64,000 bases of DNA from an uncultured Acidobacteriota bacterium (GTDB taxonomy: Bacteria > Acidobacteriota > Blastocatellia > RBC074). The translations under genes and the position numbers were made by a program. This document shows, piece by piece, positions 36,862 through 51,688 of the stretch. How positions within the stretch are numbered: position 1 is the first letter of the stretch; each line of letters opens with the position of its first letter. The stretch lies in assembly GCA_963699175.1 (NCBI GenBank), contig OY969418.1, positions 1,666,791 through 1,730,790 on the forward strand. The letters are read 5' to 3'. The notes beneath the pieces are model-generated. The model was not told the DNA's origin and ran no database searches. It worked only from the letters and a program-made list of their open reading frames with translations.

Positions 36862-37612
36862 AAGGCAGATTGATGTTGTCCTAAACTTTAGTTCGGAGTG
36901 CGTGCGCGATGCTCAATCAGGGCGGCTGCCCGGCCTGTTCCCAGCCAAGTTGAAAGACAATACCCCTGTGAACGAGGCCGTGATGGTAGGGGCTGCGCTG
37001 AATGATGTCAACCAGAGGCGGCGAGCAACCCAAATCATTACCGCAGCAATCAAAGGCGCGGCAATTCGTCGGTCATAAACACAAAATCAGTTGCCCCACA
37101 CCCCGATAAGTCCTTGCAGGAAAAAGCCTGCCGTGAATTTTATAGTTGACGGCTATGCGGGCGGAGCGTTAGATTACGCCTGCCTTCACCCCGTAAAGTT
37201 TTCATCATTCCCAGAGACAGTAGGACTAAAGGTGATTCCTGAACTGCCCTGGCAATAATGCATAAGAACATTCCGTTTATCGCCACATTGAAATCATTCT
37301 CGTTTTACCCCGGTCAATATGGTGCTGGTGTTAGCGAAAGGCGTGCTGATTCCGCGCAATGTGCAACTGCAGTGAGTCCCCACTTCTACTCTATCGTGTG
37401 TTTCCGTTGGGCGAATCTGCTCTAAAGCAGCAGCCCGTAGCGGCGCAACACTCGACGAGCTTGGCCGTGCGGCCAAGCCAGGGGACGTACAGTTTGCGCT
37501 CGGCACGCAGGTGCGACCGGACAAAATCTAGTAACTATACCCACGTGGAAGACTGCCCGCCCAGTCTCTCCCCCAACGACGCAAGTCTGCGCAGGACTTT
37601 TTGGAGGTGCCT

Positions 37613-40600
37613 ATGTCGTTGCCGAGCGGCAAGTCTTTGGTAGCATTCTTTAGCAATCTCGTTCGCAATTACCGTCTACAAGTTTTCATTCTCTTCATCG
37701 CTGCAACGTTACTCAGCGTCCAGCCTATGCATGCGTCTTTGAATCAAGCGGGCAACCCGCCCGCCAAAGCGCAGCATGAGATCAACGCGAGCCAACCAAG
37801 TGCACGCGGCCTTTGGCAAACGCTCAAAGGCCACTTCAACTCGAGCAGGCCCGTGCCGATCAGCGCAGCGCCTGTGTTGCAGGGCTTGCCGGTCACAGTA
37901 GTCTCAGCGGCTACCTTCGAGATAGCGCCGGTTGCGCCGGATTCCATCGTAGCTGCCTTTGGCGCCAACCTAGCAACGCGTGTTGAGGTGGCGACCTCGA
38001 CACCGCTGCCGACTTCGCTCGCCGGGACAACGGTGCGCGTGCGGGATAGTCAGGGCGCAGAGCGCTTCGCACAGCTCTTCTTCGTCGCGCCAACGCAGGT
38101 CAACTTCCTGGTGCCGGCGGACACAGCCACCGGTAATGCGACCGTCACAATCACTACCAGCGAGGGCCTGGTTTCGACTGGGCAGGTGCAGATCGCACGC
38201 GTTGCGCCGGCACTTTTTACAGTAAATGCTTCAGGCAAAGGCTTGCCTACTGGCTTCGCGTTACGCGTAGCGCCCAACGGCACGCAGTCGCAGCAAGTGT
38301 TCTCGCGCTTCGATGCGGCGCAGAACCGGTTTTTGCCGGTGCCGGTTGATCTACTTACCGAAAACGATCAGGTCTTTCTGGTGCTCTTCGGCACGGGCTT
38401 TCGCGGGCGCAACAGCTTGAATGATGTGACGGTGCGTTTGGGCGGCTTGGAAGGCGCTGCCGTGCCGGTTCAATTTGCGGGGCGGCAAGGCGGCTCACCC
38501 GGCCTCGATCAGCTCAACGTCGGCCCGATCAATCGCGGCGAAGTGCGCACGCGGCTGGCCGGGCGTGGACTCATCAACCTGACACTGAGCGTGGTTGATC
38601 CGAGCAATGGTACGCAGAAACTTTCCAACCCAACAGAGCTTGAACTGGCCGGAGTGAGCCAGGGAGCGCCGCCGACCGTGGGCGAGCCTTCCCAACAAAA
38701 TTTCACCACCGGGCAAACGGTCACCATCACTGGCGGATCATTTGTCGCGGGCAGCACGACAGCCAATCGCGTGCGCATCGGCAGCCAGCTGGCGCAGATC
38801 ATCTCGGCGACCAGCAACCAGTTGACGATTCAGCTTCCTTACGGCGTAGGGACTGGCAGAATCACCGTCACCACACCGACGGGCGAGGCTTCGACAAACA
38901 ACTCTTTGCAAATTACCACCTCGGTCAGCGGCATCGTCGAAACCAGCGACCGCCTGCCACTCAGTGGCGTGGTCGTGCGCGCGCTCATCACTGGCGAGCA
39001 AACGACGACGCGGCCTGACGGTTCATTCATTCTGCCGATCAACATCAACCCGCCACCCAACACCTTCTTCACCACGCTGCAAATTTCGCCGCAAGGCGTG
39101 CAGGGCTTCCAGAACTACGGCACGCTCTCCATCCGCGTAGAGGTCGCTACACGGCGCGACAATCGTTTGTCCGCGCCGATCTCGTTGAATCCGCCGAACG
39201 GGCGCAGTACTGGCGCTGGCGGCGAAATCAATCTGAGCATACCAACCTTCGCCTGCGGCGCGAGCGACACTGCCACGCCGAGCAATGTGACGTTCCACCT
39301 AGATGCGGGCGCGATCATGCAATTCCCTGCCGATGCGCCCGTCAGTCAACTAACGCTTTCACAAGTGCTGAATTGCCGCACGCCCAAGCCGCTGCCACCG
39401 AGCGTCTACAGTTCACGCATCGTGCAACTCACGCCGCTGGGCACGCGGTTCATTCCGGGCGGGCAGTTGATCTTCCCGAACCCTGAGAATTTTGCGGCGG
39501 GCACGCAGTTGCGGCTCTTCCGCCTGGATCAGCGCAGCGACAGCCCGACGCTGGGCAGTTTTATTGACATCGGCGCGGCCACCGTCTCCTCCGACCGGCA
39601 GCGCATCGAGAGTGGAGCGCAGGCCATCACTGAAGGCGGCATCTACTTAGTCGCCTTGCAGCCCGTCAGCGTGACCAGCGTGACTGGCCGCGTAGTCGAG
39701 CGCATCAGCGACACGTTGAGCGTTCCCGTGCCCGGCGCGCTGGTGCAAGTGCGCGGGCAAGCGACCTTCACTGACGGCGATGGCGCTTTCGTACTGCGCA
39801 ACGTCCCGCTCAACAGCGAGCCAGTCACGGTCGAGGCCAGTTTGCTGCGTCCGGACGGGCGCGCGGATGCGGTCTTGCGTGTGCTGAGCAGTGGCGTCAT
39901 CAGGCCGGGCGGGGTAACAATGGTTACGCCTGACCTCTTCTTCGCTTCGCTCAGTTCACCTACGAACCGCGCGCCAATCGCCACTTCGCAGACGGTTACG
40001 CTCGACGAGAACACCTCGAAGACGATCTTCCTGAGTGCGGGTGATCCCGATGGCAATCCGCTTCGCTACATCATCACGCCGCCTCAGCGCGGCACGTTGA
40101 CCGGCGCGCCGCCGAATGTCATCTACACGCCGAATCAGTTTTACAGTGGGTCGGACAATTTCACCTTCAGAGTCAATGACGGCAAGGCGGACAGCAACAC
40201 CGCCGTAGTCGCAATCACCATCAATCACATCAACCACGCGCCTGTCTTGACTGTCCCCGGGCCACAGACGGTCAAGAAGAATCAAAACATCACGTTTGAA
40301 GTTTCGGCTACTGATGTGGATTTGGGCGACACCATCTCGATCACCGCGCCGAACCGTCCGCCCGGTTCGAGCTTCATTGAATCCACCCGCCGCTTCACCT
40401 GGACGCCGAGTTGTACACAGGTGGGCACGTTCACTGCCACCTTTGCGGCGGTGGATAGTGGCAGACCGGCGCTGAGTGATGTCAAATCGGTGCAGATCAC
40501 GGTGCTCGACGACAATTGTTCGCCCACGCTGATCCTGCCTGGGCCGCAGACTGTCAACCAAGGACAACTGCTCGCCTTCACTGTTGGAGCTAACGACCCC

Positions 40601-43600
40601 GAAGGACAGGCGGTCACGCTTTCGGCAGCCAATCTGCCGTTGGGCGCAAACTTCAATTCGGCCAATGGACAATTCACTTGGACGCCGACCTGCACGCAAG
40701 CCGGTGGCTTCACGGTGAGCTTCACTGCGACGGACAGCGGCAATCCGCCGAAGAGCGACACACGGACGCTTTCGATCTTGGTCAACAGCGTCACCACGCC
40801 GCCAAACATCAACACGCTGCAAAACGTGTACAACATTGCCGAAGGCCAACAGTTGATCTTCAATGTGTCGGCCTCGCCGAGTTGTCCGAACCAGAACGTG
40901 GTGCTCAATTCGGCCAATCTGCCGTCCGGTGCGACCTTTGGGCCGCCTAGCACTACCGCAGGCACGGTCACGCGCGAATTCCGCTGGACGCCGAGCTTCA
41001 CGCAGGCGGGCACGTATAACGTCACTTTCACGGCTAACGACACGGTCAATCCGAACGCCGTCGCCACCCGCGTTGTGACCATCAACGTGGTTGACTTCAA
41101 CCTCGATCCGAGCCTGAACGTGCCCAGCCCCTCGCCCACCGTCAACGTCGGCTCGCAGCTTGTCTTCAACGTCACTGCCACCGACCCCGACTCAGGGCAG
41201 GTAGTTACGCTGACCGTACAAAACATACCGGCGGGCGCGCTCTTCAACACCACGCCCGGCAATCCGGCGACGGGCCAGTTCATCTGGACGCCGAACTTCG
41301 CGCAGTTGAGCAATTTCACCGTGAACTTCGTGGCGACTGACAACGGTCAGCCCGCGCGCAGTGTGATCAAACCCGTCACTATCCTCGTCACCGGTGATTG
41401 CCAACCCGTTCTCAACGTGCCCAGCCCGCAGACCGCGGTCGAAGGGCTGCCGCTCACGTTCTTCGTGCAGGGGTCGCCGAAATGTCCGGGTCAGGTGGTG
41501 ACGCTCGGCGCACCGAGCTTGCCGCCACGCGCGACCTTCAACCCGCTGACCGGCGAGTTTAGCTGGACGCCGAACATTGGCGAGGCTGCCGTCTACACGG
41601 CGACCTTCACGGCCACCGACAACAGCACACCGCCGCGCGTCACGTCGAAGCCCGTCGTGATCACGGTCGTGCCCAACCGCGCGCCGATAGCCAACAACCA
41701 GAGCGTGACACTCGACGAAGACACGCAGAAGACGATCACGCTGACGGCGGTTGATCCTGAAAATCAGCCGCTCACTTTCGGCATCGTCCAACCGCCTGCG
41801 CACGGCACGTTGATCGCCACGGGCACTAATGGGGTGTTCATCTACACGCCGGTCGCTAACTACAATGGCCCAGACTCATTCACGTTCAAGGCCAACGACG
41901 GCAAGCTGGACAGCACGCCCGCGACCGTTTCGATCACGGTCAATCCGGTCAACGACACGCCGACGGTCACTTCGCAGAATCTCGCCATCAGCGAAGACAC
42001 GCCAATCAGCGTTACGCTGCAAGGCAACGACGTGGACGGCGACCCGCTGACCTTCGCCATCACGAAACAGCCGAGCCACGGCACGCTTTCCGGCACTGCG
42101 CCAACGCTGATCTACACTCCGGTGGCGAATTACTTCGGCCCGGATGATTTCAGGTTCAAGGCCAACGACGGCAAGGGCGATAGCGCCGAAGGGGTCATCT
42201 CAATCACGATCACTTCGGTCAACGACACGCCGAACATCACGGTGCCCGGCCCGCAAACCGTCACCACCAGCTCGCCGGTCAACTTCACCGTGACGGCTTC
42301 GGACGTTGACGTGAACGACGTGTTGACGATCACAGCAACTAACCTGCCGACTGGCGCGACGCTCACGCAGACCAACTCGACGGCGGCGAACGCCTCCGCG
42401 CAGTTCGCGTGGACGCCCACCGAGGCTCAGGCTGGCAGCTTCACCATCACCTTCACTGTCACAGACAACGGTTTGCCTGCGTTGAGCCAGAGCAAGACCG
42501 TCACCATCGTGGTCAATCCGGTCACCACACCGATCACGATTGACGCGCCGATGGAGGTGACAGTCGCCGAAAACCAGCCGGTCAGCTTCACTGTCACGGC
42601 TAGCGGCGGCACGATAGGTCAAACCTTCACGCTCAGCGCTTCCAACCTGCCAGCGGGCGCGACCTTCCCAGCAGCGACCAACAGCGGCAACTCGGTCAGC
42701 CAGACCTTCAACTGGACGCCTACCTTCGCCCAGGCGGGAACGTATGACATTACGTTCACCGCTCAGCGTGGCGCGACGCCGGTGAGCAAGGTCACGCGCA
42801 TCATCGTGACCAATGTCTGCCGTCCACCCGTGTTGACCCAGCCCAGCACTCCGGTCAACGTGCCAGAAGGTCAGGCGATCAGTTTCACCGTCACGGCCAC
42901 TGATCCTGACACGGGCGAGACGCTGACCTTGTCCGCCACCAATCTGCCGACTGGCGCGACCTTCCCGGTCGCCACCAGCACCAACGGCACGGTGACGCAA
43001 ACCTTTAATTGGACGCCCTCCGGCACTCAGGCAGGCACTTACACTGTCAACTTCGTAGTGACAGATAATTGCTCGCCGACCACGGGCACCGATACGAAGA
43101 GCGTCACGTTCAACATCAGCAACATCAACCAACCACCGGTCGCCAACTCGCAAACTGGCGATCAAAAGGTAGTCACGCCCGAAAACACGCCGAAGCCGAT
43201 CACCTTGACCGGCAGCGATCCCGACGGCGATCTGCTCAGCTTCATCCTGGTCACACAGCCACAACACGGTACGTTGTCGGGCACGGCGCCCAACGTTACC
43301 TACACACCCAACACGGACTTCAACGGCACCGACTCGTTCACCTTCAAGGTCAACGACGGCCAGGTGGACAGCAACACTGCCACGGTCGAGATACTCGTCT
43401 CGTCCGTGTGTAGCGCGCCCGTGTTGACCGTGCCTGGAGCCCAAACCATCTCACTGACCTTGCCGCAGGATTGCAACCAGCCACCCGTCGCCCAACCGCT
43501 GACCTTCACCGTCACGGCCAACGACGCGGACACTGGCGACATCATCACGCTGGCAGCGCAGAACCTGCCGTCGGGCGCAACCTTCACGCAGACCAACAAC

Positions 43601-44668
43601 ACGGCGGGTGCCGCCTCCGGCACCTTCACCTTCACGCCGTCACCCTTCAACGAAGCGGGCCAGTTCACGGTGACCTTCACCGCTAGCGACAACTGCACGA
43701 CGCCGCAAACGGTGATGAAGACGGTCAACATCACGCTGACCATCCCCAACTCGCCAACGCGCTGGGTGCCCACCAACATTCCGAAGGCGGGCGCAGTCAC
43801 CACACTGTTGCGCAACGGCAACAACCTCTACGCAGCAATCGCCGGTGGCGGCTTCTTCCTCTCGACCAACAACGGCTTAACTTGGCCGCGCATTGATCAG
43901 TCGGGGTTGAACGGCGCAGACATCCGCGCGCTGGCGCTGAAGACTGTGGGCCAGAGCGCCTTCATCTTCGCCGGCTCGGCGGGCGGTGGCGTCTATCGTT
44001 CCAACGATAATGGCGTCACCTGGACGCAGTTCTCCAACTTGGGCAACAACTTCGTGCGGGCGCTCGCGGTCAGCAGTGATGGCACCGTCTTCGCCGGCAC
44101 GCAAGGCGGCGGCGTCTTCTTCTCGACGAACGACGGCTCAAGCTGGACGGCGTACAACGGAGGCTTAGGCGGTGATCTGAACATCTACGCCTTGCTCGTT
44201 ATCGGCACTGGCGCGAATGCCCGCATCTACGCCGGTACGGAGGCCAGCGGCGTCTTCTCGCTGCCCGTGAACGCACTCAACGGCAGCGGCGATCCCTGGG
44301 TCGCCGTAGGCACAGGCTTGCCGGCGATTCGTATCAACACGCTCGAAGTCAGCGCGGATGGCAATACGCTCTACGCCGGAACAAATGGCAACGGCGTCTT
44401 CCGCGTTTCGGTCAACAATCCGGGCAGTTGGCAGAACATCAGCACGGGCCTCGATAACACAACGATCAATGACCTGCTCGTTGTGAGCAACACACTCTAC
44501 GCAGCGACGGGCGGAGGCGTCTTCCGCTTCGACGAAGGCTTGGGCGTGTGGCTGGCGATCAATGAATGCCTGCCAAACACCGAGATCAATTCGCTCGCCA
44601 CCAGCAGCGCCAGCACGAAGCTGTTTGCGGCGACGAATGATGCGCGGGTGTTTATCAGGCCGCTGTAG
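37613..44668 (+). CDS. giant surface adhesin-like protein: TIGR03437 (Soli_cterm)-like domain, IPT/CarbopepD_reg-like, ~12 Ig/cadherin-like (He_PIG/VCBS) repeats, C-terminal BNR/Asp-box beta-propeller
   Basis: RBS GGAGGTG. N-terminal TM/signal. VVSAATFEIAPVAPDSIVAAFGANLA...FAQLFFVAPTQVNFLVP...GNATVTITT fits the Soli_cterm pattern. Repeats of the form APVLTVPGPQTV...TFTAT.DSG.P.LS and NRAPIA..QTVTLDE...TPN..Y.G.DSFTF.ANDGK.DS. The C-terminus carries SxDxGxTW Asp-box motifs (SNDNGVTWTQ, STNDGSSWTA). The track ORF starts at 37601. Confidence 0.75.
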   Translation: MSLPSGKSLVAFFSNLVRNYRLQVFILFIAATLLSVQPMHASLNQAGNPPAKAQHEINASQPSARGLWQTLKGHFNSSRPVPISAAPVLQGLPVTVVSAATFEIAPVAPDSIVAAFGANLATRVEVATSTPLPTSLAGTTVRVRDSQGAERFAQLFFVAPTQVNFLVPADTATGNATVTITTSEGLVSTGQVQIARVAPALFTVNASGKGLPTGFALRVAPNGTQSQQVFSRFDAAQNRFLPVPVDLLTENDQVFLVLFGTGFRGRNSLNDVTVRLGGLEGAAVPVQFAGRQGGSPGLDQLNVGPINRGEVRTRLAGRGLINLTLSVVDPSNGTQKLSNPTELELAGVSQGAPPTVGEPSQQNFTTGQTVTITGGSFVAGSTTANRVRIGSQLAQIISATSNQLTIQLPYGVGTGRITVTTPTGEASTNNSLQITTSVSGIVETSDRLPLSGVVVRALITGEQTTTRPDGSFILPININPPPNTFFTTLQISPQGVQGFQNYGTLSIRVEVATRRDNRLSAPISLNPPNGRSTGAGGEINLSIPTFACGASDTATPSNVTFHLDAGAIMQFPADAPVSQLTLSQVLNCRTPKPLPPSVYSSRIVQLTPLGTRFIPGGQLIFPNPENFAAGTQLRLFRLDQRSDSPTLGSFIDIGAATVSSDRQRIESGAQAITEGGIYLVALQPVSVTSVTGRVVERISDTLSVPVPGALVQVRGQATFTDGDGAFVLRNVPLNSEPVTVEASLLRPDGRADAVLRVLSSGVIRPGGVTMVTPDLFFASLSSPTNRAPIATSQTVTLDENTSKTIFLSAGDPDGNPLRYIITPPQRGTLTGAPPNVIYTPNQFYSGSDNFTFRVNDGKADSNTAVVAITINHINHAPVLTVPGPQTVKKNQNITFEVSATDVDLGDTISITAPNRPPGSSFIESTRRFTWTPSCTQVGTFTATFAAVDSGRPALSDVKSVQITVLDDNCSPTLILPGPQTVNQGQLLAFTVGANDPEGQAVTLSAANLPLGANFNSANGQFTWTPTCTQAGGFTVSFTATDSGNPPKSDTRTLSILVNSVTTPPNINTLQNVYNIAEGQQLIFNVSASPSCPNQNVVLNSANLPSGATFGPPSTTAGTVTREFRWTPSFTQAGTYNVTFTANDTVNPNAVATRVVTINVVDFNLDPSLNVPSPSPTVNVGSQLVFNVTATDPDSGQVVTLTVQNIPAGALFNTTPGNPATGQFIWTPNFAQLSNFTVNFVATDNGQPARSVIKPVTILVTGDCQPVLNVPSPQTAVEGLPLTFFVQGSPKCPGQVVTLGAPSLPPRATFNPLTGEFSWTPNIGEAAVYTATFTATDNSTPPRVTSKPVVITVVPNRAPIANNQSVTLDEDTQKTITLTAVDPENQPLTFGIVQPPAHGTLIATGTNGVFIYTPVANYNGPDSFTFKANDGKLDSTPATVSITVNPVNDTPTVTSQNLAISEDTPISVTLQGNDVDGDPLTFAITKQPSHGTLSGTAPTLIYTPVANYFGPDDFRFKANDGKGDSAEGVISITITSVNDTPNITVPGPQTVTTSSPVNFTVTASDVDVNDVLTITATNLPTGATLTQTNSTAANASAQFAWTPTEAQAGSFTITFTVTDNGLPALSQSKTVTIVVNPVTTPITIDAPMEVTVAENQPVSFTVTASGGTIGQTFTLSASNLPAGATFPAATNSGNSVSQTFNWTPTFAQAGTYDITFTAQRGATPVSKVTRIIVTNVCRPPVLTQPSTPVNVPEGQAISFTVTATDPDTGETLTLSATNLPTGATFPVATSTNGTVTQTFNWTPSGTQAGTYTVNFVVTDNCSPTTGTDTKSVTFNISNINQPPVANSQTGDQKVVTPENTPKPITLTGSDPDGDLLSFILVTQPQHGTLSGTAPNVTYTPNTDFNGTDSFTFKVNDGQVDSNTATVEILVSSVCSAPVLTVPGAQTISLTLPQDCNQPPVAQPLTFTVTANDADTGDIITLAAQNLPSGATFTQTNNTAGAASGTFTFTPSPFNEAGQFTVTFTASDNCTTPQTVMKTVNITLTIPNSPTRWVPTNIPKAGAVTTLLRNGNNLYAAIAGGGFFLSTNNGLTWPRIDQSGLNGADIRALALKTVGQSAFIFAGSAGGGVYRSNDNGVTWTQFSNLGNNFVRALAVSSDGTVFAGTQGGGVFFSTNDGSSWTAYNGGLGGDLNIYALLVIGTGANARIYAGTEASGVFSLPVNALNGSGDPWVAVGTGLPAIRINTLEVSADGNTLYAGTNGNGVFRVSVNNPGSWQNISTGLDNTTINDLLVVSNTLYAATGGGVFRFDEGLGVWLAINECLPNTEINSLATSSASTKLFAATNDARVFIRPL

Positions 44669-44798: not shown

Positions 44799-45200
44799 TC
44801 AAATAAACAGTTCAGATGAGACGTGAAAGAAGTCAGCCAGTTTCTTGGCTTGCGCCTTGCTGATGGCGCGCACCCCGTTGACGGCTTCAGCCGCCCGTTC
44901 GCCTGAACCGAATAACGGCGCCAAGACTTCCTGCTGCAACCCGCGGGCTTCCAGCAAATGCTGTATGACTTGATGCGGCGCTGTTGGTTCAATCGGATAG
45001 TGTTCTTCTTCGTAGTCCTGAATCAGTTTCACGAGCAGATCGAAGAGCTTTACTTCTTCCGGCGACAGGTCGGCTTCACGGCTCATCATTAGCTCAACGA
45101 CCGCCAGCAAGCGTTCATATTCAGCTTCGCTCTCGATGATTTGGGGAAGCGTCGCAGCCAACCAGTCCGCATACTTCTTCGGGCTATATTTAGCAGTCAT
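44799..45200 (-). CDS. HigA-family / Xre-type HTH protein (COG5499-like antitoxin)
   Basis: 133 aa. The C-terminal HTH (LQQEVLAPLFGSGERAAEAVNGVRAISKAQAKKLADFFHVSSELFI) is typical of HigA-like antitoxins. It lies directly downstream of a 460-aa nuclease-like protein instead of a HigB. Confidence 0.6.
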   Translation of the reverse strand: MTAKYSPKKYADWLAATLPQIIESEAEYERLLAVVELMMSREADLSPEEVKLFDLLVKLIQDYEEEHYPIEPTAPHQVIQHLLEARGLQQEVLAPLFGSGERAAEAVNGVRAISKAQAKKLADFFHVSSELFI

Positions 45201-45270: not shown

Positions 45271-46653
45271 CTACCGCAACACCCGCTCCCGCATCCGCCA
45301 CAAACTCTGCGCCGTGAAAGGCTCGCCGTCAAAGACGATCTGCTTCATCCCTTTGCCCTGCCGCTGCAAATACTCCGTCACGTTCATCCACTGGATGCGC
45401 CCGTCGCCGTCACGCACAACTAACATCACGGGGTGAACGCTGGCCCGCCACTGCTCAGCATAATCCGCTTTGGCGATGGTAAAGACCCACCGTTCGCCCT
45501 GCTTGGACAGCGTGAAGTATTCGTCCGATTTGAATTGCAAGTAGACGCGCCGACCGCTCGGTTCGCCTTGGTCGTTCTTGAATTCGATCTCACCGTCAAT
45601 GCCCCAATCGGCCCCGATGGTTGGCCTGAAAATCTGCCCGGCCTCTGCGGCAATAGCCAGGGCGTGCGCTACCAGCAGCAATTCACGGCTCTGGTTATCA
45701 ATCGTGAGGCGGGACTTCTCCTCCAAGCCGCGCACCTCTTGCTGGATTCGCTCCGAAGCAAATTTCTCTTCAATCAGGTCGCGCAGCACAATCGGCTTAC
45801 TACAAAACTGGCAAGGAATTTTCTTCTTGCCGCTCTCAACCGCTTTCTGAATCGCGCGGGTGCTTTCCACCGGCTCACCGCATTTGGGATATGGGCAAAC
45901 GTAGTGGCGCAGGCGGACGACGTGCGGATCCTTCGCCTTCAAATGGTCGTGGATGTAGCGAATGAAAGTTACCTTGGTATCTTCGTTCGCGTGCGGCTCG
46001 CAATAAACCGTGAGTTCGGCGGCTCCTTCGGCCTTCTTGGTCATTTTGAAACCGACGCGCCGGTTGGCATGCGTTCTGAAATCAGCCGCGAAGCGCCAGA
46101 GCCACTTCTCGCCCGTCTCGAAAGCAGCGGTGTGCCGCAGTTTCACCACCAGCGTCGCGTAAATCTCGTCGAGCGGCCCGCTGAATTGATACGTCACCAG
46201 CGCCGACGGATGATCCGGCTGATCGGGCCGTTCGCGCTTGAAGTAGGAGGGAAATACCAGCAACGTGCCAGCCTCAGTATGTTCGCGCAGGCAGAGGCCA
46301 TGATCCACGAGAATTTGGTGCATGGCCCGCAAGACGATCTGCTCTTCGTCGGCTGGCAACCGCTCCATTTTCTCTTTGTCAGCTTTCTGATAGTCGAGGT
46401 CTCCGACCAGCACGCGCTCTTCAGAAATACAGCCGATCTCATCCGTGTGAGCGCGCACGGAACGAATCACTGCCGCCGCGTAAGCGTTGATGCGTTCGGG
46501 CTGAAGCAGTACGAAGTCACCGAACTCCAATTGCCAGACGATGCCTGGCCCGGCCAGCAAGCCCACCACCGCCCGCAACTCTTCCGGCGTGAAGCTTTCG
46601 CCCGGCAGCCGCATTTCAAGCTGCTGCTTCAACTCGCCCATCCGCAGCAACAC
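45271..46653 (-). CDS. 460-aa protein: unknown N-terminal region, C4 zinc ribbon, C-terminal DUF4365-like PD-(D/E)xK nuclease-fold domain
   Basis: CPYPKCGEP...CQFCSKP zinc ribbon. C-terminal GADWGIDGEIEF...RRVYLQFKSDE resembles the DUF4365 signature (D..IDG.IE ... QxK). The start is GTG at 46653 or ATG at 46641. No P-loop seen. Confidence 0.5.
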   Translation of the reverse strand: MLLRMGELKQQLEMRLPGESFTPEELRAVVGLLAGPGIVWQLEFGDFVLLQPERINAYAAAVIRSVRAHTDEIGCISEERVLVGDLDYQKADKEKMERLPADEEQIVLRAMHQILVDHGLCLREHTEAGTLLVFPSYFKRERPDQPDHPSALVTYQFSGPLDEIYATLVVKLRHTAAFETGEKWLWRFAADFRTHANRRVGFKMTKKAEGAAELTVYCEPHANEDTKVTFIRYIHDHLKAKDPHVVRLRHYVCPYPKCGEPVESTRAIQKAVESGKKKIPCQFCSKPIVLRDLIEEKFASERIQQEVRGLEEKSRLTIDNQSRELLLVAHALAIAAEAGQIFRPTIGADWGIDGEIEFKNDQGEPSGRRVYLQFKSDEYFTLSKQGERWVFTIAKADYAEQWRASVHPVMLVVRDGDGRIQWMNVTEYLQRQGKGMKQIVFDGEPFTAQSLWRMRERVLR

Positions 46654-46785
46654 GCGGCCTTCGTCCCTGAGCTTGACGATCTCTTCCTTGATATGTCACA
46701 TGTCCGCGCGGCAGGCGACAAGGAACAATCTACTCATTGTGTCCAATTTGATTTTCAGGACTTCCGATTCGGAGATAAGTTCAAC

Positions 46786-49134
46786 ATGTCTATCAAACGC
46801 CCAGTACCGCATTCTTGGCCAGTGAATGTGCTGTTTGCTTTGTTTTTTGCATCTCTGAGCTTGTCGAGTTGTTCAGAGCAGCCGCGCCAAGGACAGTCAT
46901 CATCTGCCTCACCGAGTCCCCGCATTGAATTCATTTGGCAAACTAAACACGGCAATACTGTTAATTCAGTTGCTTTCTCACCCGATGGTAAAACGATTGT
47001 AAGCGGTAGTGATGACGGAACAGTCGCACTACTTGATGCAGACAAGGGAAAACTCAATCGGACTCTCACGCATAACAATGTTGTTAACTCAGTCGCTTTC
47101 TCACTTGATGGAGGCCTAATTGCGAGTGGCAGCAGTGACAAAACTGTCAAGATTTGGGATCCACATACAGCAGAGGTAAAGCGGATTCTGACTCACGATG
47201 ATGTTGTAACAGCAATTGCTTTCTCGCCGGATGGGAAGACGTTGGCAAGTGGAAACGACATTGACGAGACAGTTGTCGAAACAGTGAAATTATGGGACGT
47301 AGACACAGGTAAACAAAAACGAAGTTTAGTAGAAGATGATCTTAGCCGTGTACGACATTCTTCTGTAGTGAATTCGATTGCTTTTTCACCAGACGGGAAA
47401 TTGCTAGCACGAGCATTTACTCAAAACTGGATAACACTTTGGGAGGCACAAACAGGAAGGCTGGGGCAGCGGCTCGTGCGCCATGGCGCTACAGTGAATT
47501 CACTGCGTTTTTCCCGAGACAGCAAAATGATTGCGAGCGGAGGGAAAGACAGTTCAGTGATTCTGTGGGATGCGCAAACAGGAGAAGTGAAACGAGTTCT
47601 TAGACCGCGCAGGGCACACTGGGTTACTTCAGTTGCTTTCTCACCAGATAGCAAGACGGTGATGAGCGGAGGGCGTGATAAAACAATTAAGTTTTATGAT
47701 GTTGGAACAGGGGAGCTAAAAATGACCCTAACCAGCAACAATGCTGTAACCTCAATTGCGGTTTCGCCTGATGGGCAGGCTTTGGTAAGTGGCGATGAAG
47801 ACGGAATGGTAACGCTGTGGAATGCACGCATTGAGACACGACTAGCGACTTTGACCGGCAGCAAAAGCCCTGAAGTGACCGAAGGTTTTTGGGAGAGCGG
47901 CAGACAATGGATTCAAGCCCATAGAACATTTGCTATTGTTGCTACCCTTATTCTCCTTTGGTTAATTTCTGAAGCCATAGTTAGAAGACGGCGCTCATCA
48001 AATGCTAAGGTGAAGTCCCAAGAGCGTGATGCTTCGCCACACAATTTGAAGCAAACCTTTGATAAGGCTCGCGAAATCCAGAAATTAATTCGTAAGCTCT
48101 TGTCTGAAACCTCCTACGTAACTCCTGAGATCGTCTTGCGGGGCCACGATAAGGCGGTATATTCAGTTATTTTTTCCCCGGATAGCAAGGTAATTGCAAC
48201 TGCAGGTGATGACGGAAAAGTAATTCTATGGGATGTAGCAACAAAAGAGAAAAAATCCGTCTTGGATCATGGCCGGGGAGTTTTAGCACTTGCATTTTCA
48301 CGCGATGGGAAAGTCATAGCCAGTGGATCTATTGATGGCTTGGTGATCGTGTGGAATGCGATAACAGGTGAAGAAATACAGCCGTTCGACACGCAAACGG
48401 AACGGATTCTTGAAAAAGGAGCGAGAAAAACATGGCTGCAGGATGACGATATTCATAGGTGGAATAATGTTACCTCGCTTGCCTTCTCCTCAGACGGAAA
48501 AACGATTGCGAGCTGCGTCAATGGCGGGACGGTGAAGCTATGGGATTTGCAAACGATAAAGGCAAAAAAGACATTAGCTACGAAGACGCCGTTGTTCACG
48601 GTGGCATTCTCCCCTGAGGGAAGATATTTGGTTAGCGGGGGACACGAAATATCATCAAGGGAGGATGACATAGCATTGATATTGTGGGAGGTGCAAACCG
48701 GGGAAGAAAAATGCTCATTAAACGTGCGGAACGCCGGTGGCGTATTTTCCGCAGCGTTTTCGCCAGATGGAAGGGTGTTGGCGCTTGGCAATGACAATGA
48801 TTATGGCAGCGACCAAGCCAATGATGATAATGATGGCGACGCATCAGTTAGGTTGTATTCTCTGCAAAATGGGACTCTTACACAAAAGATGACGCTGAAC
48901 GGCCATAGCCAACCCGTGCGATCAATCGCCTTCTCACCAAATGGTGAGGTAATAGCTAGTGGCAGCGCTGATTGCACAGTGACATTGTGGGGAGTACAGG
49001 GGGTAAAGTGGCAACAGACGCTAAAACATGACGACACAATTACTTCTGTCACATTCTCACCAGACGGAAGTAGACTAGCTTGCGCAAGCGTAAATAAAAC
49101 AGTGAAAGTATGGCGAGTTCAGAGTAAGACCTAA
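46786..49134 (+). CDS. WD40-repeat lipoprotein with two 7-blade propellers separated by a TM helix
   Basis: MSIKRPVPHSWPVNVLFALFFASLSLSSC (lipobox LSSC). 7 WD40 blades (FSPDGKT...GSDDGTV...). TM TFAIVATLILLWLISEAIV plus RRRRSS. 7 more WD40 blades. GC (~45%) is far below that of its neighbours. The track's 45433..49134 ORF is an artefactual upstream extension. Confidence 0.75.
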   Translation: MSIKRPVPHSWPVNVLFALFFASLSLSSCSEQPRQGQSSSASPSPRIEFIWQTKHGNTVNSVAFSPDGKTIVSGSDDGTVALLDADKGKLNRTLTHNNVVNSVAFSLDGGLIASGSSDKTVKIWDPHTAEVKRILTHDDVVTAIAFSPDGKTLASGNDIDETVVETVKLWDVDTGKQKRSLVEDDLSRVRHSSVVNSIAFSPDGKLLARAFTQNWITLWEAQTGRLGQRLVRHGATVNSLRFSRDSKMIASGGKDSSVILWDAQTGEVKRVLRPRRAHWVTSVAFSPDSKTVMSGGRDKTIKFYDVGTGELKMTLTSNNAVTSIAVSPDGQALVSGDEDGMVTLWNARIETRLATLTGSKSPEVTEGFWESGRQWIQAHRTFAIVATLILLWLISEAIVRRRRSSNAKVKSQERDASPHNLKQTFDKAREIQKLIRKLLSETSYVTPEIVLRGHDKAVYSVIFSPDSKVIATAGDDGKVILWDVATKEKKSVLDHGRGVLALAFSRDGKVIASGSIDGLVIVWNAITGEEIQPFDTQTERILEKGARKTWLQDDDIHRWNNVTSLAFSSDGKTIASCVNGGTVKLWDLQTIKAKKTLATKTPLFTVAFSPEGRYLVSGGHEISSREDDIALILWEVQTGEEKCSLNVRNAGGVFSAAFSPDGRVLALGNDNDYGSDQANDDNDGDASVRLYSLQNGTLTQKMTLNGHSQPVRSIAFSPNGEVIASGSADCTVTLWGVQGVKWQQTLKHDDTITSVTFSPDGSRLACASVNKTVKVWRVQSKT

Positions 49135-49164
49135 GATCATAGACGACGCGCCGACCATCCGGCG

Positions 49165-49665
49165 TCACCGCCACTCCATACACACTGTCTGTATGCCATC
49201 TGAAACCTCGCTTGATCGCGCTTGGTCTTTCCGCTCGATCACACGCTCAGTCTCGGCTGCCGCCGGTCGGCAAGCGGCCAACAACCGGGCATACTGCTCC
49301 TCGGAGCGCTGCCGCCAATCCACATACGCGAATTGCTTGAGCGTATACGGGATCTCGGCGTCATCCAGGCGCACGGGGATGAAGCGGCCTTGCTGATTGG
49401 TCGGGTCGTTGAAAAGCGCCGACTGATGCTCGAACCTCACCCATTCCGACGCCGAGGCGTGCTGCGACATCATCAGCACGAGCGTCCGCGCCTGCTCCAA
49501 GCCCTCATGAATCCTGCGCAGGATCGCATCGCCCGGCTTGATCTCCGCTTCGTCGAACCACACGCGCAGCCCGTCCCGGCGCAACCGCTCGGCCAACTCG
49601 CGCACCGCCGGTTTGTCTTGGCTGCTGTGGCTGATGAAGACATCGTATTTGAATTGTTCGGCCAT
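49165..49665 (-). CDS. stand-alone TIR-domain protein
   Basis: MAEQFKYDVFISHSSQDKPAVRELAERLRRDGLRVWFDEAEIKPGD... is the canonical TIR N-terminus. A conserved Glu lies in SASEWVRFEHQ. 166 aa. Confidence 0.8.
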   Translation of the reverse strand: MAEQFKYDVFISHSSQDKPAVRELAERLRRDGLRVWFDEAEIKPGDAILRRIHEGLEQARTLVLMMSQHASASEWVRFEHQSALFNDPTNQQGRFIPVRLDDAEIPYTLKQFAYVDWRQRSEEQYARLLAACRPAAAETERVIERKDQARSSEVSDGIQTVCMEWR

Positions 49666-49752
49666 AGGCTTTGTCAGGTTGGTTTGGCAGTAAATTGAAG
49701 CCGGTGCTTATTTATCTCCGAGACTAGCAACACTTTGAACTGGCGCAGCCTG

Positions 49753-49894
49753 TGGAGTGCGGCGGCTTGACGCCGCTTTGGTATCACCTCAAGGTGCTCC
49801 ACCAGGCGGGCAAGGCTGGCCACGCCGTCTTGGCTTTCCGCTGGCGTCTGCAGCCAAAGCTGATACCAAAGCGGCGTCAAGCCGCCGCACTCCA
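49753..49894. repeat. perfect 34-bp inverted repeat with 74-nt spacer
   Basis: TGGAGTGCGGCGGCTTGACGCCGCTTTGGTATCA ... TGATACCAAAGCGGCGTCAAGCCGCCGCACTCCA, exact reverse complements. It lies between the TIR gene start and the mazF stop. Confidence 0.8.
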
Positions 49895-49934
49895 AAGACG
49901 TTGCGCGTCGAAATAAGCACAGGCTTCAGTAAAT

Positions 49935-50282
49935 TCACAGGCCGAGACAGTAGCGAACCGCGTCCTCGACCTGATTCAAAATTGCGCCGGAGATTTTTCC
50001 AGCAGGCGTCGGCGGAAAACGTGAAGCATCGAGCGAGCGGACTTGGAAACACAGAAAGACAGTTTCCAGCGGCAGCCCGCTGTCGGCAGCAACAACGCGA
50101 ACATTGGTCGGGTAGTTCTGCGGTACGTTCTGGCCTTTTGTCCCTACGACGACTGTAACGACCAGCGGCAGCCGATTGATGGCATCAATCGAAAGCACCA
50201 ACACCGGGCGCTGGCCTGCTTGTTCGCGCCCTTGTGCCGGGTTCAAGTTGACGAAGTAAATCTCGCCGCGCTGAATGGCCAT
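49935..50282 (-). CDS. mazF: MazF/PemK-family type II toxin (mRNA interferase)
   Basis: MAIQRGEIYFVNLNPAQGREQAGQRPVLVLSIDAINR is the PemK/MazF signature. 115 aa. Confidence 0.75.
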   Translation of the reverse strand: MAIQRGEIYFVNLNPAQGREQAGQRPVLVLSIDAINRLPLVVTVVVGTKGQNVPQNYPTNVRVVAADSGLPLETVFLCFQVRSLDASRFPPTPAGKISGAILNQVEDAVRYCLGL

Positions 50283-50285
50283 CAG

Positions 50286-50525
50286 CTATCCTCTTTCTTC
50301 GGTGAGCAGCCCGTCCGTTTCCGTCCCGGCAAATTCAGCTTCGATTTCCCGCAATTCGCGTTGAATATCCGGGTCGGCGGCCATCGCGGCCAACTGCTCT
50401 TCAATGCGCTGTGGCTGGTCGGCGCGTCCGAGTAGATCAGCAACGCGCTTGATGATTTGCAATTGTTCGTTAGGCGAAAGCTGTTGCACCTGGCTCATAA
50501 TCAAATCGAGTTGATTGGCAACCAC
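50286..50525 (-). CDS. type II antitoxin (TIGR02574-like addiction-module component)
   Basis: 79 aa. LSPNEQLQIIKRVADLL motif. GTG start with RBS AAGGAGG. The gene lies 3 nt upstream of mazF. Confidence 0.55.
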   Translation of the reverse strand: MVANQLDLIMSQVQQLSPNEQLQIIKRVADLLGRADQPQRIEEQLAAMAADPDIQRELREIEAEFAGTETDGLLTEERG

Positions 50526-50580
50526 CGTTTTACCTCCTTGTTGGCAGCATCCGGATTATACGCAACCGTAGCGCAATTCA

Positions 50581-50690
50581 GCCAGCCGCGCCGGGCAGTT
50601 CCAAGGCAACCGCTCGGCCAACTCGCGCACCGCCGGTTTGGCTTGGCTGCTGTGGCTGATGAAAACATCGTATTTGAATTGTTCGGCCAT
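50581..50690 (-). pseudogene. duplicated 5' fragment of the TIR gene
   Basis: 50606-50693 matches 49581-49668 (88 bp, 2 mismatches). It encodes MAEQFKYDVFISHSSQAKPAVRELAERL and then diverges to a stop. Confidence 0.75.
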
Positions 50691-50768
50691 AGGTTTCCCC
50701 CTCGACGCTAGCAATCAATCCCTCAGCCTGCGGCAGCAGGCGACAGCATAAAGCCTGGGGTGGAGCGC

Positions 50769-50802
50769 GGCAGCGCGGAACCCCAGGATAGCGGATGATG
50801 AA
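50769..50802. repeat. REP-like palindrome 1
   Basis: CCTGGGGTGGAGCGCGGCAGCGCGGAACCCCAGG. Confidence 0.7.
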
Positions 50803-50908
50803 TTACGCAAGCCCGTGAAACGGGCGGCAGCTAAGCGTTGCTAAGCGCGCCGTATTGTACACGCTGTCGCTCGCTCCGCGAGCTTGTGTGTTCGTGTGCG
50901 TGCGTTTC

Positions 50909-50948
50909 CTGGGGTTTCGCTCCGCTGACGCTGTGCTCCACCCCAGGC
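50909..50948. repeat. REP-like palindrome 2
   Basis: CCTGGGGTTTCGCTCCGCTGACGCTGTGCTCCACCCCAGG. Confidence 0.7.
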
Positions 50949-50995
50949 TTTAGGCTGGCACCCGCTTCGCGGGTTGAGAGCGCGGCACTTAGGCG

Positions 50996-51417
50996 TCAAA
51001 TGTGCCGCTCGTCATATTCGATGCCATTGGCTTTCAAAAATCCGATGAATTCGTCACGAAACGATTGTTTGCGATGATGCGCTTGTTGGCGCGCAATGTA
51101 TTCCTGCACAGCTTGTACATTGGATTGGCTAACGGTGAATGCGCCATAACCACGTTGCCACGCGAAATCTTGCGCGTCGGGAAAGATGTCGTGCATCCAG
51201 CCGCTCGCATTCGCCTTGAGATCGCGCAGCACATCCGACACTGACTTATCCGGTCGCAGCTTTGCCAGCAGATGAACGTGATCTTCCGTGCCGTTGATGC
51301 CGAGCGACATTCCGCCCAGTCCGCGTAGAGTCTGGCTTGATAAGCCTCGGTGATAATCGGTTGGCGCTCTTTGGTCGAGAAGATGATGTGATAGAGCAGA
51401 TTGGCGTAAGACGATGA
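50996..51417 (-). pseudogene. tnpA: IS200/IS605-family TnpA (REP-associated tyrosine transposase-like), frameshifted
   Basis: N-terminal part MSSSYANLLYHIIFSTKERQPIITEAYQARLYA with RBS AGGAGGAAG. The frame shifts near 51310. The C-terminal part GGMSLGINGTEDHVHLLAKLRP...FAWQRGYGAFTVSQ... is in another frame. HxH and GY motifs are present. Confidence 0.7.
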
Positions 51418-51478
51418 CATGGCTTCCTCCTGGTGGCTGTCGCCTGTGAGCGCGGGCTGGTGTTGTTTGTTACGTAGG

Positions 51479-51510
51479 CCGGGGTGAAACGCGGCAGCGC
51501 GGGACCCCAG
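51479..51510. repeat. REP-like palindrome 3
   Basis: CCGGGGTGAAACGCGGCAGCGCGGGACCCCAGG. Confidence 0.7.
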
Positions 51511-51617
51511 GAAACGCACGCCCGCAAACACGCAAGCTCGCGGGGCGAGCGACAGCTTGATAGAAAACAACTGGCTGTCGCCCGTTTCACGGGCTTACAC
51601 AATTTACCATCCGCCAA

Positions 51618-51652
51618 CCCTGGGGTTGCGCGCTATCGCGCTTCACCCCAGG
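51618..51652. repeat. REP-like palindrome 4
   Basis: CCCTGGGGTTGCGCGCTATCGCGCTTCACCCCAGG. Confidence 0.7.
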
Positions 51653-51688
51653 CTTTACGATTTCGCCTGCTGTCGCAGGCTGGATCAG

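What the first reader, a model, noticed from the sequence alone, without database searches (positions are those of the whole stretch)
46786..49134. Low-GC WD40 lipoprotein with two propellers on either side of a transmembrane helix
The gene is ~45% GC in a ~60% GC context, so it is likely horizontally acquired. It has a lipobox (LSLSSC), seven WD40 blades, one TM helix followed by an RRRRSS stop-transfer, then seven more WD40 blades. One propeller is therefore predicted outside and one inside the membrane, an unusual transmembrane-sensor architecture with no enzymatic domain. It sits between the DUF4365 nuclease-like gene (divergent) and the TIR gene (convergent, 30-bp gap). In STAND/Avs-type defense proteins WD40 arrays are sensor modules. 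Here sensor-like and effector-like parts are separate genes.
Basis: partly seen in the sequence, partly recalled or inferred. Interest (0 to 1): 0.55.

Follow-up and report, generated by a model that had tools for sequence, protein, structure and literature searches.

The report
Foreign WD40 gene splits defence gene
The low-GC gene for a membrane protein with one beta-propeller on each side of the membrane is real. It is a lone foreign insertion that broke a single TIR–WD40–GTPase–DUF4365 gene in two, so its "TIR" and "DUF4365" neighbours are the remains of that gene, not its partners.

Summary
The gene at 46786..49134 (+) encodes 782 aa with these features:
- a lipobox (L26-S-S-C29);
- seven WD40 blades;
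- one strongly hydrophobic helix (381-399) followed by RRRR;
- seven more blades.

Its GC3 is 0.43 against 0.70±0.05 for 25 other long ORFs (z = -5.4).

The neighbourhood reading does not hold. In 44 related loci from several phyla, TIR, WD40×7, a small GTPase, an unassigned middle region and DUF4365 lie in that order on one strand. They form a single 1139-aa ORF in L004 and a single 1183-aa ORF in L011. The window keeps only residues about 26-200 and 664-1136 of that gene, on the minus strand. The roughly 1.4 kb between them (six and a half WD40 repeats plus the GTPase) has been replaced by about 2.45 kb of low-GC DNA. That DNA carries only the WD40 lipoprotein gene, in the opposite orientation.

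The protein is a singleton. The next-best relatives are 28-39% identical, generic arrays of at least 13 contiguous blades (mostly 14). None of the 119 other listed hits has a membrane helix between propellers. The linker and helix have no homologue among 1.84 billion representative proteins. No relative of the flanking gene has such a neighbour.

The most likely reading is a recently acquired, non-enzymatic bitopic envelope scaffold of unknown ligand. It is unrelated to the TIR and DUF4365 fragments.

The parts
46786..49134 (+). WD40 lipoprotein gene, 782 aa (ATG 46786, TAA 49132-49134)
   Evidence: Translation. Pfam finds WD40 and beta-propeller families only. An identical 782-aa product is in the public collection as P0001, a singleton cluster.
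46786..46872 (+). Lipoprotein signal peptide, residues 1-29: K4 R5, hydrophobic W11-L26, lipobox L-S-S-C29
   Evidence: Sequence. Helix 13-25, then a disordered stretch 28-52 in the model. The match to the PS51257 pattern was read from the sequence.
46948..47850 (+). N-terminal seven-bladed WD40 propeller (residues 55-355), predicted periplasmic
   Evidence: 7 blade matches. 28 strands with pLDDT mostly above 90.
47851..48129 (+). Linker, residues 356-448: long helix 365-407 that contains the membrane segment, then helix 419-442
   Evidence: Model. No homologue among 1.84 billion representative proteins, nor in viral or metagenome contigs.
47926..47994 (+). Transmembrane segment 381-399 (TFAIVATLILLWLISEAIV) plus RRRR 400-403
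   Evidence: Kyte-Doolittle mean 2.27; Hessa-scale sum -0.35; K/R count 2 before and 7 after.
48130..49131 (+). C-terminal seven-bladed WD40 propeller (residues 449-782), predicted cytoplasmic
   Evidence: 7 blade matches. 28 strands, with strand 449-452 closing the last blade. 32% identical to the N propeller.
46693..49141 (.). Low-GC foreign block, about 2.45 kb. The left limit lies between 46693 and about 46740. The right limit lies between 49135 and 49141.
   Evidence: Fine GC profile. Homology to the intact host-type gene stops at 49142 and resumes at 46692. No direct or inverted repeat of 7 nt or more at the two ends.
49165..49665 (-). 5' remnant of the disrupted gene: intact TIR_2 domain. 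The last ~15 residues are an out-of-frame read of WD40 repeat 1.
   Evidence: Pfam TIR_2, 1.8e-31. Homologues 60-80% identical continue into WD40 repeats. Aligns to residues 26-204 of the L004 ORF.
49142..49195 (-). Remnant of WD40 repeat 1 of the disrupted gene ('HTDSVYGVAVTPDGRRVV'), in a different frame from the TIR ORF and cut at about 49141
   Evidence: Three-frame translation. tblastn hits in frame -1, 72-83% identical.
45271..46692 (-). 3' remnant of the disrupted gene: unassigned middle region with a zinc-ribbon-like motif, plus DUF4365. The listed ORF starts at an internal GTG at 46653.
   Evidence: Pfam DUF4365, 1e-16. 75% identical to residues 664-1136 of the 1139-aa L004 ORF. Homologues are mostly 600-800 aa and carry Ras/Roc and WD40 upstream. 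A stop codon lies immediately upstream of 46692.
49581..50696 (-). Second disruption of the same gene: 91-nt direct repeats (49581-49671 and 50606-50696, 97% identical) of the TIR 5' end. They bracket mazF (49935..50282), a mazE-like ORF (50286..50525) and a hairpin at 49750-49897.
   Evidence: Residues 7-76 of the L011 ORF align to 50816-50607.

Best explanation
History of the locus (shown). An ancestral minus-strand gene of the type TIR–WD40×7–small GTPase–unassigned middle region–DUF4365 occupied this site. A block of about 2.45 kb of low-GC foreign DNA replaced about 1.4 kb of its core, that is six and a half WD40 repeats and the GTPase. The block holds little more than one gene: at most 93 bp upstream of the ATG and at most 7 bp after the stop. 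Neither end shows a transposon hallmark, so illegitimate recombination is inferred. The TIR ORF and the DUF4365 ORF are the two stumps of that gene.

The protein (topology predicted, function inferred). The incoming gene encodes an orphan bitopic protein. A lipoprotein signal peptide exports and anchors a seven-bladed WD40 propeller in the periplasm. A stop-transfer helix (381-399, followed by RRRR) spans the inner membrane. A helical linker and a second seven-bladed propeller stay in the cytoplasm. With no catalytic domain, it most plausibly acts as a passive transmembrane scaffold or adaptor. In that role it would couple a periplasmic ligand or partner to a cytoplasmic partner by binding on the propeller faces. 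It does not work with the TIR and DUF4365 fragments.

Sub-confidences: insertion and disruption history about 0.9; foreign origin about 0.85; outside/inside topology about 0.65; scaffold function about 0.3.
For: Co-linear intact gene elsewhere:
- In all 44 related loci that reach far enough, the order is TIR, WD40, Ras/Roc GTPase, middle region, DUF4365, on one strand.
- It is a single ORF of 1139 aa in L004 and 1183 aa in L011.
- Pfam on the L004 ORF gives TIR_2 at 34-153, seven WD40 repeats within about 177-473 and Ras at 485-647. The PADLOC REase models that match DUF4365 hit 1010-1116.
- P0328 carries TIR, WD40 and DUF4365 in one protein.

Breakpoints in the window:
- The window aligns to L004 residues 26-204 (49665 to 49141) and 664-1136 (46692 to 45277), and to nothing between.
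- The WD40 repeat-1 remnant is frameshifted and cut at about 49141, 7 nt after the TAA of the low-GC gene.
- A stop codon sits just upstream of 46692.
- The fall in GC coincides with both breakpoints.

Foreign origin: GC3 is 0.428 against 0.698±0.050, z = -5.4, and is uniform over the gene.

Orphan status:
- P0001 is a one-member cluster.
- The next-best hits are 28-39% identical generic WD40 arrays.
- The linker has no homologue.
- None of the 119 other listed hits has blades on both sides of a hydrophobic helix.

No conserved partnership: the 44 loci show WD40 similarity only inside the cassette, and no match to the linker.

Topology and fold. The nearest relatives carry N-terminal signal-like segments, or a helix before the array, so extracytoplasmic WD40 arrays are usual in this group. 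The closest solved fold is the Nostoc 14-repeat double propeller 2ymu, at 34% identity.
Against: - No topology predictor or experiment was available. The membrane helix contains a Glu (E396), and the Hessa-scale sum is only slightly negative.
- A lipoprotein that also has a membrane helix is uncommon.
- With a single sequence there is no evidence of purifying selection, expression or any binding partner. The scaffold function rests only on the absence of catalytic domains.
- No promoter-like site was found upstream and no terminator downstream.
- The donor is unknown.
- The source genome could not be named, so a diderm envelope is inferred only from the Acidobacteriota affinity of the flanking gene.
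Confidence: 0.72

Rival explanations
1. One reading: a three-gene defence system in which the WD40 membrane protein is the sensor and the separate TIR and DUF4365 genes are its effectors.
For: TIR and DUF4365 are bona fide defence-type effector domains. DUF4365 is the nuclease of SPARDA-type short Argonaute systems (PMC10810196, PMC12205087). The region also holds mazEF and a HigA-like gene. The TIR ORF keeps every column that is invariant among 17 homologues, including E79.
Against: - The two 'effector genes' are fragments of one gene whose own WD40 sensor and GTPase were deleted by the insertion.
- The TIR ORF ends in a frameshifted, truncated WD40 repeat.
- The DUF4365 ORF begins at an internal codon just after a stop.
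- The arrangement is not found in any of 44 related loci.
- The WD40 protein is a singleton.
- The three ORFs lie on different strands with very different composition.
Confidence: 0.03
2. The ORF is evolutionary debris: a fragment of a longer secreted gene (signal peptide, 14 WD40 blades, C-terminal domain) that picked up an in-frame hydrophobic insert. It is not expressed or not functional in this host.
For: - It is a singleton with an orphan linker.
- Many of the nearest relatives have a signal peptide, 14 contiguous blades and a C-terminal domain of about 450 aa, which JGI names caspase-like for several of them. That domain is absent here.
- The foreign block ends within 7 nt of the stop codon, and no promoter or terminator was detected.
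- It landed in a locus already broken by another insertion.
Against: - 782 codons are open, with 14 well-formed blades.
- 489 residues are modelled at pLDDT of 90 or more.
- The signal peptide, lipobox, tether, helix and positive cluster form a coherent type-I topology.
- Composition is uniform across the linker and propellers, so the linker was not added in this host.
- The stop codon lies inside the foreign block.
Confidence: 0.2
3. Assembly artefact: foreign WD40 sequence was joined into this contig by mis-assembly across WD40 repeats.
For: Short-read assemblies demonstrably break the related gene inside its near-identical WD40 repeats. The composition of the block is alien.
Against: - Both flanks of the block belong to the same host gene, in the same order and orientation. 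A simple chimeric join would not give that.
- The block is in the opposite orientation and shares no repeat of 7 nt or more with the flanks.
- The left breakpoint is not in a WD40 repeat at all.
- The gene and its neighbours are recorded together on one 9.54-Mb contig.
Confidence: 0.03

Closest known systems
Prokaryotic tandem (14-repeat) WD40 double propellers, e.g. the Nostoc punctiforme protein of PDB 2ymu; catalogued in PMC5587647
   Same: Two seven-bladed WD40 propellers in one chain. 2ymu is the top Foldseek match, at 34% identity. The blade consensus is the same as in the 119 other listed hits.
   Different: In all of those the blades are contiguous. Here 93 residues with a membrane helix separate blades 7 and 8. 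An N-terminal lipobox is also present.
Envelope-associated WD40 arrays: signal peptide–WD40×14–C-terminal (caspase-like) proteins, and STAND-, kinase- or sigma-factor–helix–WD40×14 proteins. PkwA of Thermomonospora curvata (PMC6113231) is a characterised kinase–WD40 example; that architecture is stated from my own knowledge.
   Same: These are the nearest sequence relatives, 28-39% identical overall and up to 48% for the N propeller. WD40 propellers are predicted outside the cytoplasmic membrane. There is a single hydrophobic helix or a signal peptide.
   Different: There the whole array lies on one side of the membrane, and an enzymatic or NTPase domain is attached. Here one propeller lies on each side and no other domain is present.
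STAND/Avs antiviral NTPases with repeat sensors
   Same: WD40 arrays occur as C-terminal sensor modules in many of the listed hits, which sources annotate as NB-ARC or NACHT.
   Different: The window's protein has no NTPase and no effector domain, and no conserved defence neighbourhood.
For the flanking, disrupted gene: Roco-like multidomain GTPases, and the TIR (SPARTA) and DUF4365/DREN (SPARDA) effectors of short Argonaute systems (PMC9097488, PMC10810196, PMC12205087)
   Same: The intact relatives combine a Ras/Roc-type GTPase with a WD40 array, a TIR domain and a DUF4365 nuclease-type domain.
   Different: There is no Argonaute or APAZ, and no match to Pfam COR. PADLOC v2 has no whole-protein model for it. 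In this window the gene is broken.

Membership tests
WD40 repeat / beta-propeller (Pfam PF00400) | Repeated ~40-residue units matching the WD40 profile and folding into 4-stranded blades that close a propeller | tested here: met
   PF00400 E = 2.5e-113 with 11 stretches. 14 blades with a blade HMM. Two 28-strand propellers in the model.
Bacterial lipoprotein (PROSITE PS51257 type signal) | Positively charged N-region, hydrophobic core, lipobox [LVI]-[ASTVI]-[GAS]-C within the first ~35 residues | tested here: met
   K4 R5; W11-L26; L26-S27-S28-C29. Helix 13-25, then a disordered tether. The pattern was checked by reading the sequence; no dedicated predictor was run.
Bacterial lipoprotein | Actual diacylglyceryl modification and signal peptidase II cleavage | not testable with these tools
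   This needs globomycin sensitivity, palmitate labelling or mass spectrometry.
Bitopic (type I) membrane protein | One internal segment hydrophobic enough to span the membrane, with positive charges on the cytoplasmic flank | tested here: met
   Kyte-Doolittle mean 2.27 for 381-399, the only internal window above 1.6. Hessa-scale sum -0.35; 2 K/R before and 7 after. Continuous helix 365-407 in the model.
STAND / Avs defence NTPase | Central NACHT, NB-ARC or other STAND ATPase domain | tested here: not met
   Pfam and PADLOC scans of the 782-aa protein return only WD40/propeller models and one repeat-level hit.
Multi-gene defence system with the TIR and DUF4365 genes | Conserved co-occurrence of the component genes in other genomes | tested here: not met
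   The 44 loci with relatives of the flanking ORFs have no separate WD40 lipoprotein gene and no match to the linker. The WD40 protein itself has no orthologue.
Thoeris (for the TIR ORF) | ThsB-type TIR protein next to a ThsA (SIR2 or membrane-helix effector with a SLOG domain) | tested here: not met
   There are weak matches to ThsB_TIR and PADLOC ThsB models, but no ThsA-like gene among the neighbours scanned. The TIR belongs to the TIR-WD40-GTPase-DUF4365 gene.
TIR–WD40–small GTPase–DUF4365 single-gene family (for the two flanking ORFs) | All domains co-linear in one reading frame | tested here: not met
   In the window only residues about 26-200 and 664-1136 (L004 numbering) remain. They are separated by the foreign block, and the 5' part is frameshifted. 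The ORFs are fragments of a member, not an intact member.
Transposon, IS element or integron cassette (for the low-GC block) | Transposase or integrase gene, terminal inverted repeats, target-site duplication, or attC | tested here: not met
   The block holds only one ORF. There is no direct or inverted repeat of 7 nt or more between its ends. Only 7 nt or fewer follow the stop codon.

The most novel reading that the evidence does not exclude
The protein is a working representative of an undescribed receptor-like architecture in bacteria. In it a lipid-anchored periplasmic WD40 propeller and a cytoplasmic WD40 propeller are joined by one membrane helix, and binding events are relayed across the inner membrane without any enzymatic domain. 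It would have been acquired recently from a low-GC donor that has not been sampled.
Probability: 0.15. Interest if true: 0.6.

Novelty: new variant of a known kind. Interest (0 to 1): 0.3.

Why it matters
For annotation. This is a clear case where guilt by association misleads. A defence-looking trio (TIR, WD40, nuclease-like) is in fact one broken gene plus an unrelated insert. Pipelines that score domain co-occurrence in islands would call a false system here.

For biology. The WD40 protein has propellers predicted on both faces of the membrane. That layout was absent from the 119 other listed hits, and its linker has no detectable homologue. It is a single sequence with no evidence of function, so the interest is modest.

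The more useful by-product is the intact TIR–WD40×7–GTPase–DUF4365 gene family. It is widespread in Acidobacteriota, Nostoc and other phyla and has no whole-protein model in PADLOC v2. It is a candidate two-effector, GTPase-switched defence gene.

Tried and rejected
- Exact look-up of the gene's contig failed twice. The source genome is not among the species representatives scanned (best match 75%).
- Searching the linker and helix alone found only the query among 1.84 billion representatives. It found nothing in viral or metagenome contigs.
- I considered that the + strand WD40 gene might be an inverted piece of the host gene's own WD40 array. I rejected this: the composition differs (0.47 against about 0.6), the blade consensus differs (VAFSPDGK...SGS against VAVTPDGRR), and the gene has its own signal peptide.
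- I considered a recent internal duplication of one propeller. I rejected this because the halves are only 32% identical, no closer to each other than to database proteins.
- I looked for a target-site duplication or terminal repeats at the ends of the block and found none of 7 nt or more.
- Promoter and terminator scans gave nothing above the shuffle expectation.
- I tested whether the HigA-like gene or mazEF travels with the cassette in relatives. There were no hits.
- I tried to assign the region between the GTPase and DUF4365 to COR. Pfam gave no match, and the PDB sequence search matched only Rab-like GTPases, so I do not call it COR.
- Pfam scans of five relatives, meant to name their C-terminal domains, were swamped by propeller models.
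- Literature searches found no description of a lipoprotein with WD40 propellers on both sides of a membrane helix, nor of the TIR–WD40–GTPase–DUF4365 gene.
Full report
**1. The observation**

The ORF at 46786..49134 (+) translates to 782 residues. The reading frame stays open upstream to 45433, but that stretch is antisense to the neighbouring DUF4365 ORF. A public annotation carries exactly the 782-aa product (P0001), so 46786 is the accepted start. An in-frame ATG also exists at 46693, with no Shine-Dalgarno-like sequence before it. GGAG lies 11 nt upstream of the ATG at 46786.

The gene's GC is 0.471 and its GC3 is 0.428. The 25 other long, non-overlapping ORFs of the window average GC3 0.698 (sd 0.050, minimum 0.527), which gives z = -5.4. 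The low GC is uniform over the signal peptide, both propellers and the linker.

The N-terminus reads MSIKRPVPHSWPVNVLFALFFASLSLSSC. It has two basic residues, a 16-residue hydrophobic core and L-S-S-C29, which fits the PROSITE lipoprotein pattern as read from the sequence. A Ser/Pro/Gln-rich tether follows.

A blade HMM built from the protein finds 14 blades, seven on each side of residue 381.

The 19-residue window TFAIVATLILLWLISEAIV (381-399) has a Kyte-Doolittle mean of 2.27. It is the only internal window above 1.6. Its summed Hessa-scale value is -0.35. The 15 residues before it hold 2 K/R and the 15 after it hold 7.

An AlphaFold2 model built on 49 aligned sequences has mean pLDDT 83.7. 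It shows a signal helix at 13-25, a disordered stretch at 28-52, a 28-strand propeller at 59-355, a continuous helix at 365-407, a second helix at 419-442, and a second 28-strand propeller at 449-777.

Only the GC figures need a small correction: 47% in a 58% context.

**2. What the neighbours really are**

*The TIR ORF.* The 166-aa TIR ORF (49165..49665, minus strand) has homologues 60-80% identical. About a third of the listed homologues continue after the TIR domain into WD40 repeats of the form GHTDxVxxVAVTPDGRRAVSGSxDxTVRVWD. In the window the last 15 or so residues of the TIR ORF align to the start of that repeat but are out of frame. In a neighbouring minus-strand frame the DNA reads HTDSVYGVAVTPDGRRVV. 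It then loses all similarity at about 49141, seven nucleotides beyond the TAA of the low-GC gene.

*The DUF4365 ORF.* The 460-aa ORF (45271..46653, minus strand) is covered end to end by homologues 48-75% identical. Most of these are 600-800 residues long and carry Ras/Roc GTPase domains upstream, and often WD40 domains too. Similarity extends 13 codons above the listed GTG, to 46692, and stops at a stop codon.

*Related loci.* In two metagenome loci a TIR-WD40 gene lies 11-36 bp upstream of a (WD40)-GTPase-DUF4365 gene on the same strand. A scan of species-representative genomes returned 42 loci from Acidobacteriota (Pyrinomonadaceae, Blastocatellia), Nostoc, Phycisphaerae, Armatimonadota, Verrucomicrobiota and others. 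Wherever the contig reaches far enough, the order is TIR, WD40 (2 to 14 repeats, usually about seven), GTPase, middle region, DUF4365.

In the long-read chromosome L004 this is one 1139-aa ORF, and in L011 one 1183-aa ORF. Pfam places TIR_2 at 34-153, seven WD40 repeats within about 177-473 and Ras at 485-647. The PADLOC REase models that correspond to DUF4365 hit 1010-1116. The apparent two-gene versions occur in short-read assemblies and break inside the near-identical repeats.

**3. The event**

Against the L004 ORF, the window retains residues 26-204 (49665 to 49141) and 664-1136 (46692 to 45277). Both pieces are on the minus strand and in the correct order. Residues of about 201-663 are missing. 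That is roughly 1.4 kb, comprising six and a half WD40 repeats and the GTPase.

In their place lie about 2.45 kb of low-GC DNA (46693 or about 46740, to 49141). This block contains only the WD40 lipoprotein gene, on the opposite strand. The fine GC profile drops at both breakpoints. There is no direct or inverted repeat of 7 nt or more between the two ends, no transposase and no attC-like sequence. I therefore infer illegitimate recombination with deletion.

The same host gene was hit a second time. The first 28 codons of the TIR ORF, together with 6 nt of the adjacent upstream sequence, are duplicated (91 nt, 97% identical). The two copies bracket a 934-bp insert with mazF, a mazE-like ORF and a long hairpin. 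The distal copy carries the native N-terminal extension.

Both stumps are still long open frames. The TIR stump keeps every column that is invariant among 17 homologues. The insert's composition has not shifted towards that of the host. Together these points suggest a recent event.

**4. What the inserted gene is**

Pfam finds only WD40 and propeller families. PADLOC finds only a repeat-level hit.

The protein is the sole member of its 90% cluster. The next-best proteins in 5.8 billion clusters are 28-39% identical and are generic WD40 arrays. All 119 other listed hits have at least 13 contiguous blades, mostly 14 and in some cases 20 to 28. Many have either an N-terminal signal-like segment or one hydrophobic helix between a cytoplasmic STAND, kinase or sigma-factor domain and the array. 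None has blades on both sides of a helix.

The 95-residue linker with the helix, searched exhaustively with phmmer against 1.84 billion representatives, matched only itself. Scans of viral and metagenome contigs found nothing.

The two propellers are 32% identical to each other. They are 36-48% identical to their best database counterparts. The gene is therefore not a recent internal duplication.

The best solved match is the Nostoc 14-repeat double propeller 2ymu.

**5. How it most likely works**

*Shown.*
- The gene is foreign.
- It is complete.
- It encodes two well-formed propellers separated by a helix of transmembrane-grade hydrophobicity.
- It carries a lipoprotein-type signal.

*Predicted.* Sec export and lipidation of the N-terminal half; stop-transfer at 381-399, with the RRRR cluster and the second propeller remaining in the cytoplasm.

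*Inferred.* With no catalytic domain, the protein would act as a passive transmembrane scaffold or adaptor whose two propeller faces bind partners on either side of the inner membrane. The ligand is unknown.

Extracytoplasmic WD40 arrays are normal among its nearest relatives, which makes the periplasmic placement of the first propeller credible. The cytoplasmic placement of the second rests on the positive-inside rule alone.

An alternative I cannot dismiss (about 0.2) is that the ORF is an unexpressed or non-functional fragment of a longer secreted WD40 protein.

**6. Comparison with known systems**

- It works like, and belongs to, the prokaryotic tandem-propeller WD40 proteins (PMC5587647; PDB 2ymu). 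It differs from all sampled members in the helix between the propellers and in the lipobox.
- It is not a STAND/Avs protein, because it has no NTPase.
- It is not part of a Thoeris-like or other multi-gene system, because the neighbourhood is not conserved.
- The flanking fragments belong to an uncharacterised TIR–WD40–GTPase–DUF4365 family. Its effector domains are those of SPARTA (TIR) and SPARDA (DUF4365/DREN) systems (PMC9097488, PMC10810196, PMC12205087). That family has no Argonaute, and PADLOC v2 has no whole-protein model for it.

**7. Verdict**

The horizontal-transfer and topology parts of the interpretation are supported. The model of separate sensor and effector genes is not supported.

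Novelty: a new variant of a known kind, seen once.

Interest is modest (0.3). The architecture is unusual but unsupported by any second sequence. The main lessons are that this defence-looking neighbourhood is one broken gene plus an unrelated insert, and that the intact flanking gene family is worth testing.

Noticed in passing
L004 3970..7389; L011 1823..5374; 44 loci L001-L045: An uncharacterised single-gene family: TIR_2, WD40×7, small GTPase (Ras/Roc), a region of about 350 aa with a CxxC…CxxC motif, and DUF4365. Proteins are about 1100-1180 aa. It is found in Acidobacteriota, Nostoc, Phycisphaerae, Armatimonadota, Verrucomicrobiota and others. PADLOC v2 gives only domain-level hits. It is a candidate two-effector, GTPase-switched defence gene.
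   Followed up: partly
L001 7254..10352; L002 7237..10187: Short-read metagenome assemblies split this family into a 'TIR-WD40' gene and a '(WD40)-GTPase-DUF4365' gene 11-36 bp apart. Long-read or complete loci show one ORF. The near-identical WD40 repeats probably cause collapse or frameshift artefacts, or the gene is often pseudogenised there.
   Followed up: partly
window 49581-49671 and 50606-50696: A 91-nt direct repeat (97% identical) of the 5' end of the TIR ORF. It brackets a 934-bp insert carrying mazF (49935..50282), a mazE-like ORF (50286..50525, no Pfam hit) and a hairpin with 40-nt arms (49750-49897). This is a second, independent disruption of the same gene, with an unusually long duplication.
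   Followed up: partly
window 50724-51682: A frameshifted Y1_Tnp (IS200/RAYT-like) gene. Its N-terminal part lies in ORF 51034..51570 and its C-terminal part in ORF 50996..51310. It sits between nested inverted repeats of 51-66 nt (80-88% complementary), which resembles a decayed REP/RAYT unit.
   Followed up: no
window 44799..45200 (-): A 133-aa HTH (HigA-like) ORF immediately downstream of the DUF4365 stump. It matches the N-terminal part of PADLOC PD-Lambda-2_B (E = 6.6e-19). It is not found next to the cassette in the 44 related loci.
   Followed up: partly
window 33934..36861 (-): A 975-aa YfhO-like membrane protein gene with the second-lowest GC3 in the window (0.527 against a mean of 0.70). 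It may be another acquired gene.
   Followed up: no
window 37601..44668 (+): A 2355-aa secreted repeat protein made of many Ig/cadherin-like tandem units and a C-terminal repeat region resembling BNR/sortilin repeats, judged by eye only. It ends about 600 bp before the disrupted gene's 3' end.
   Followed up: no
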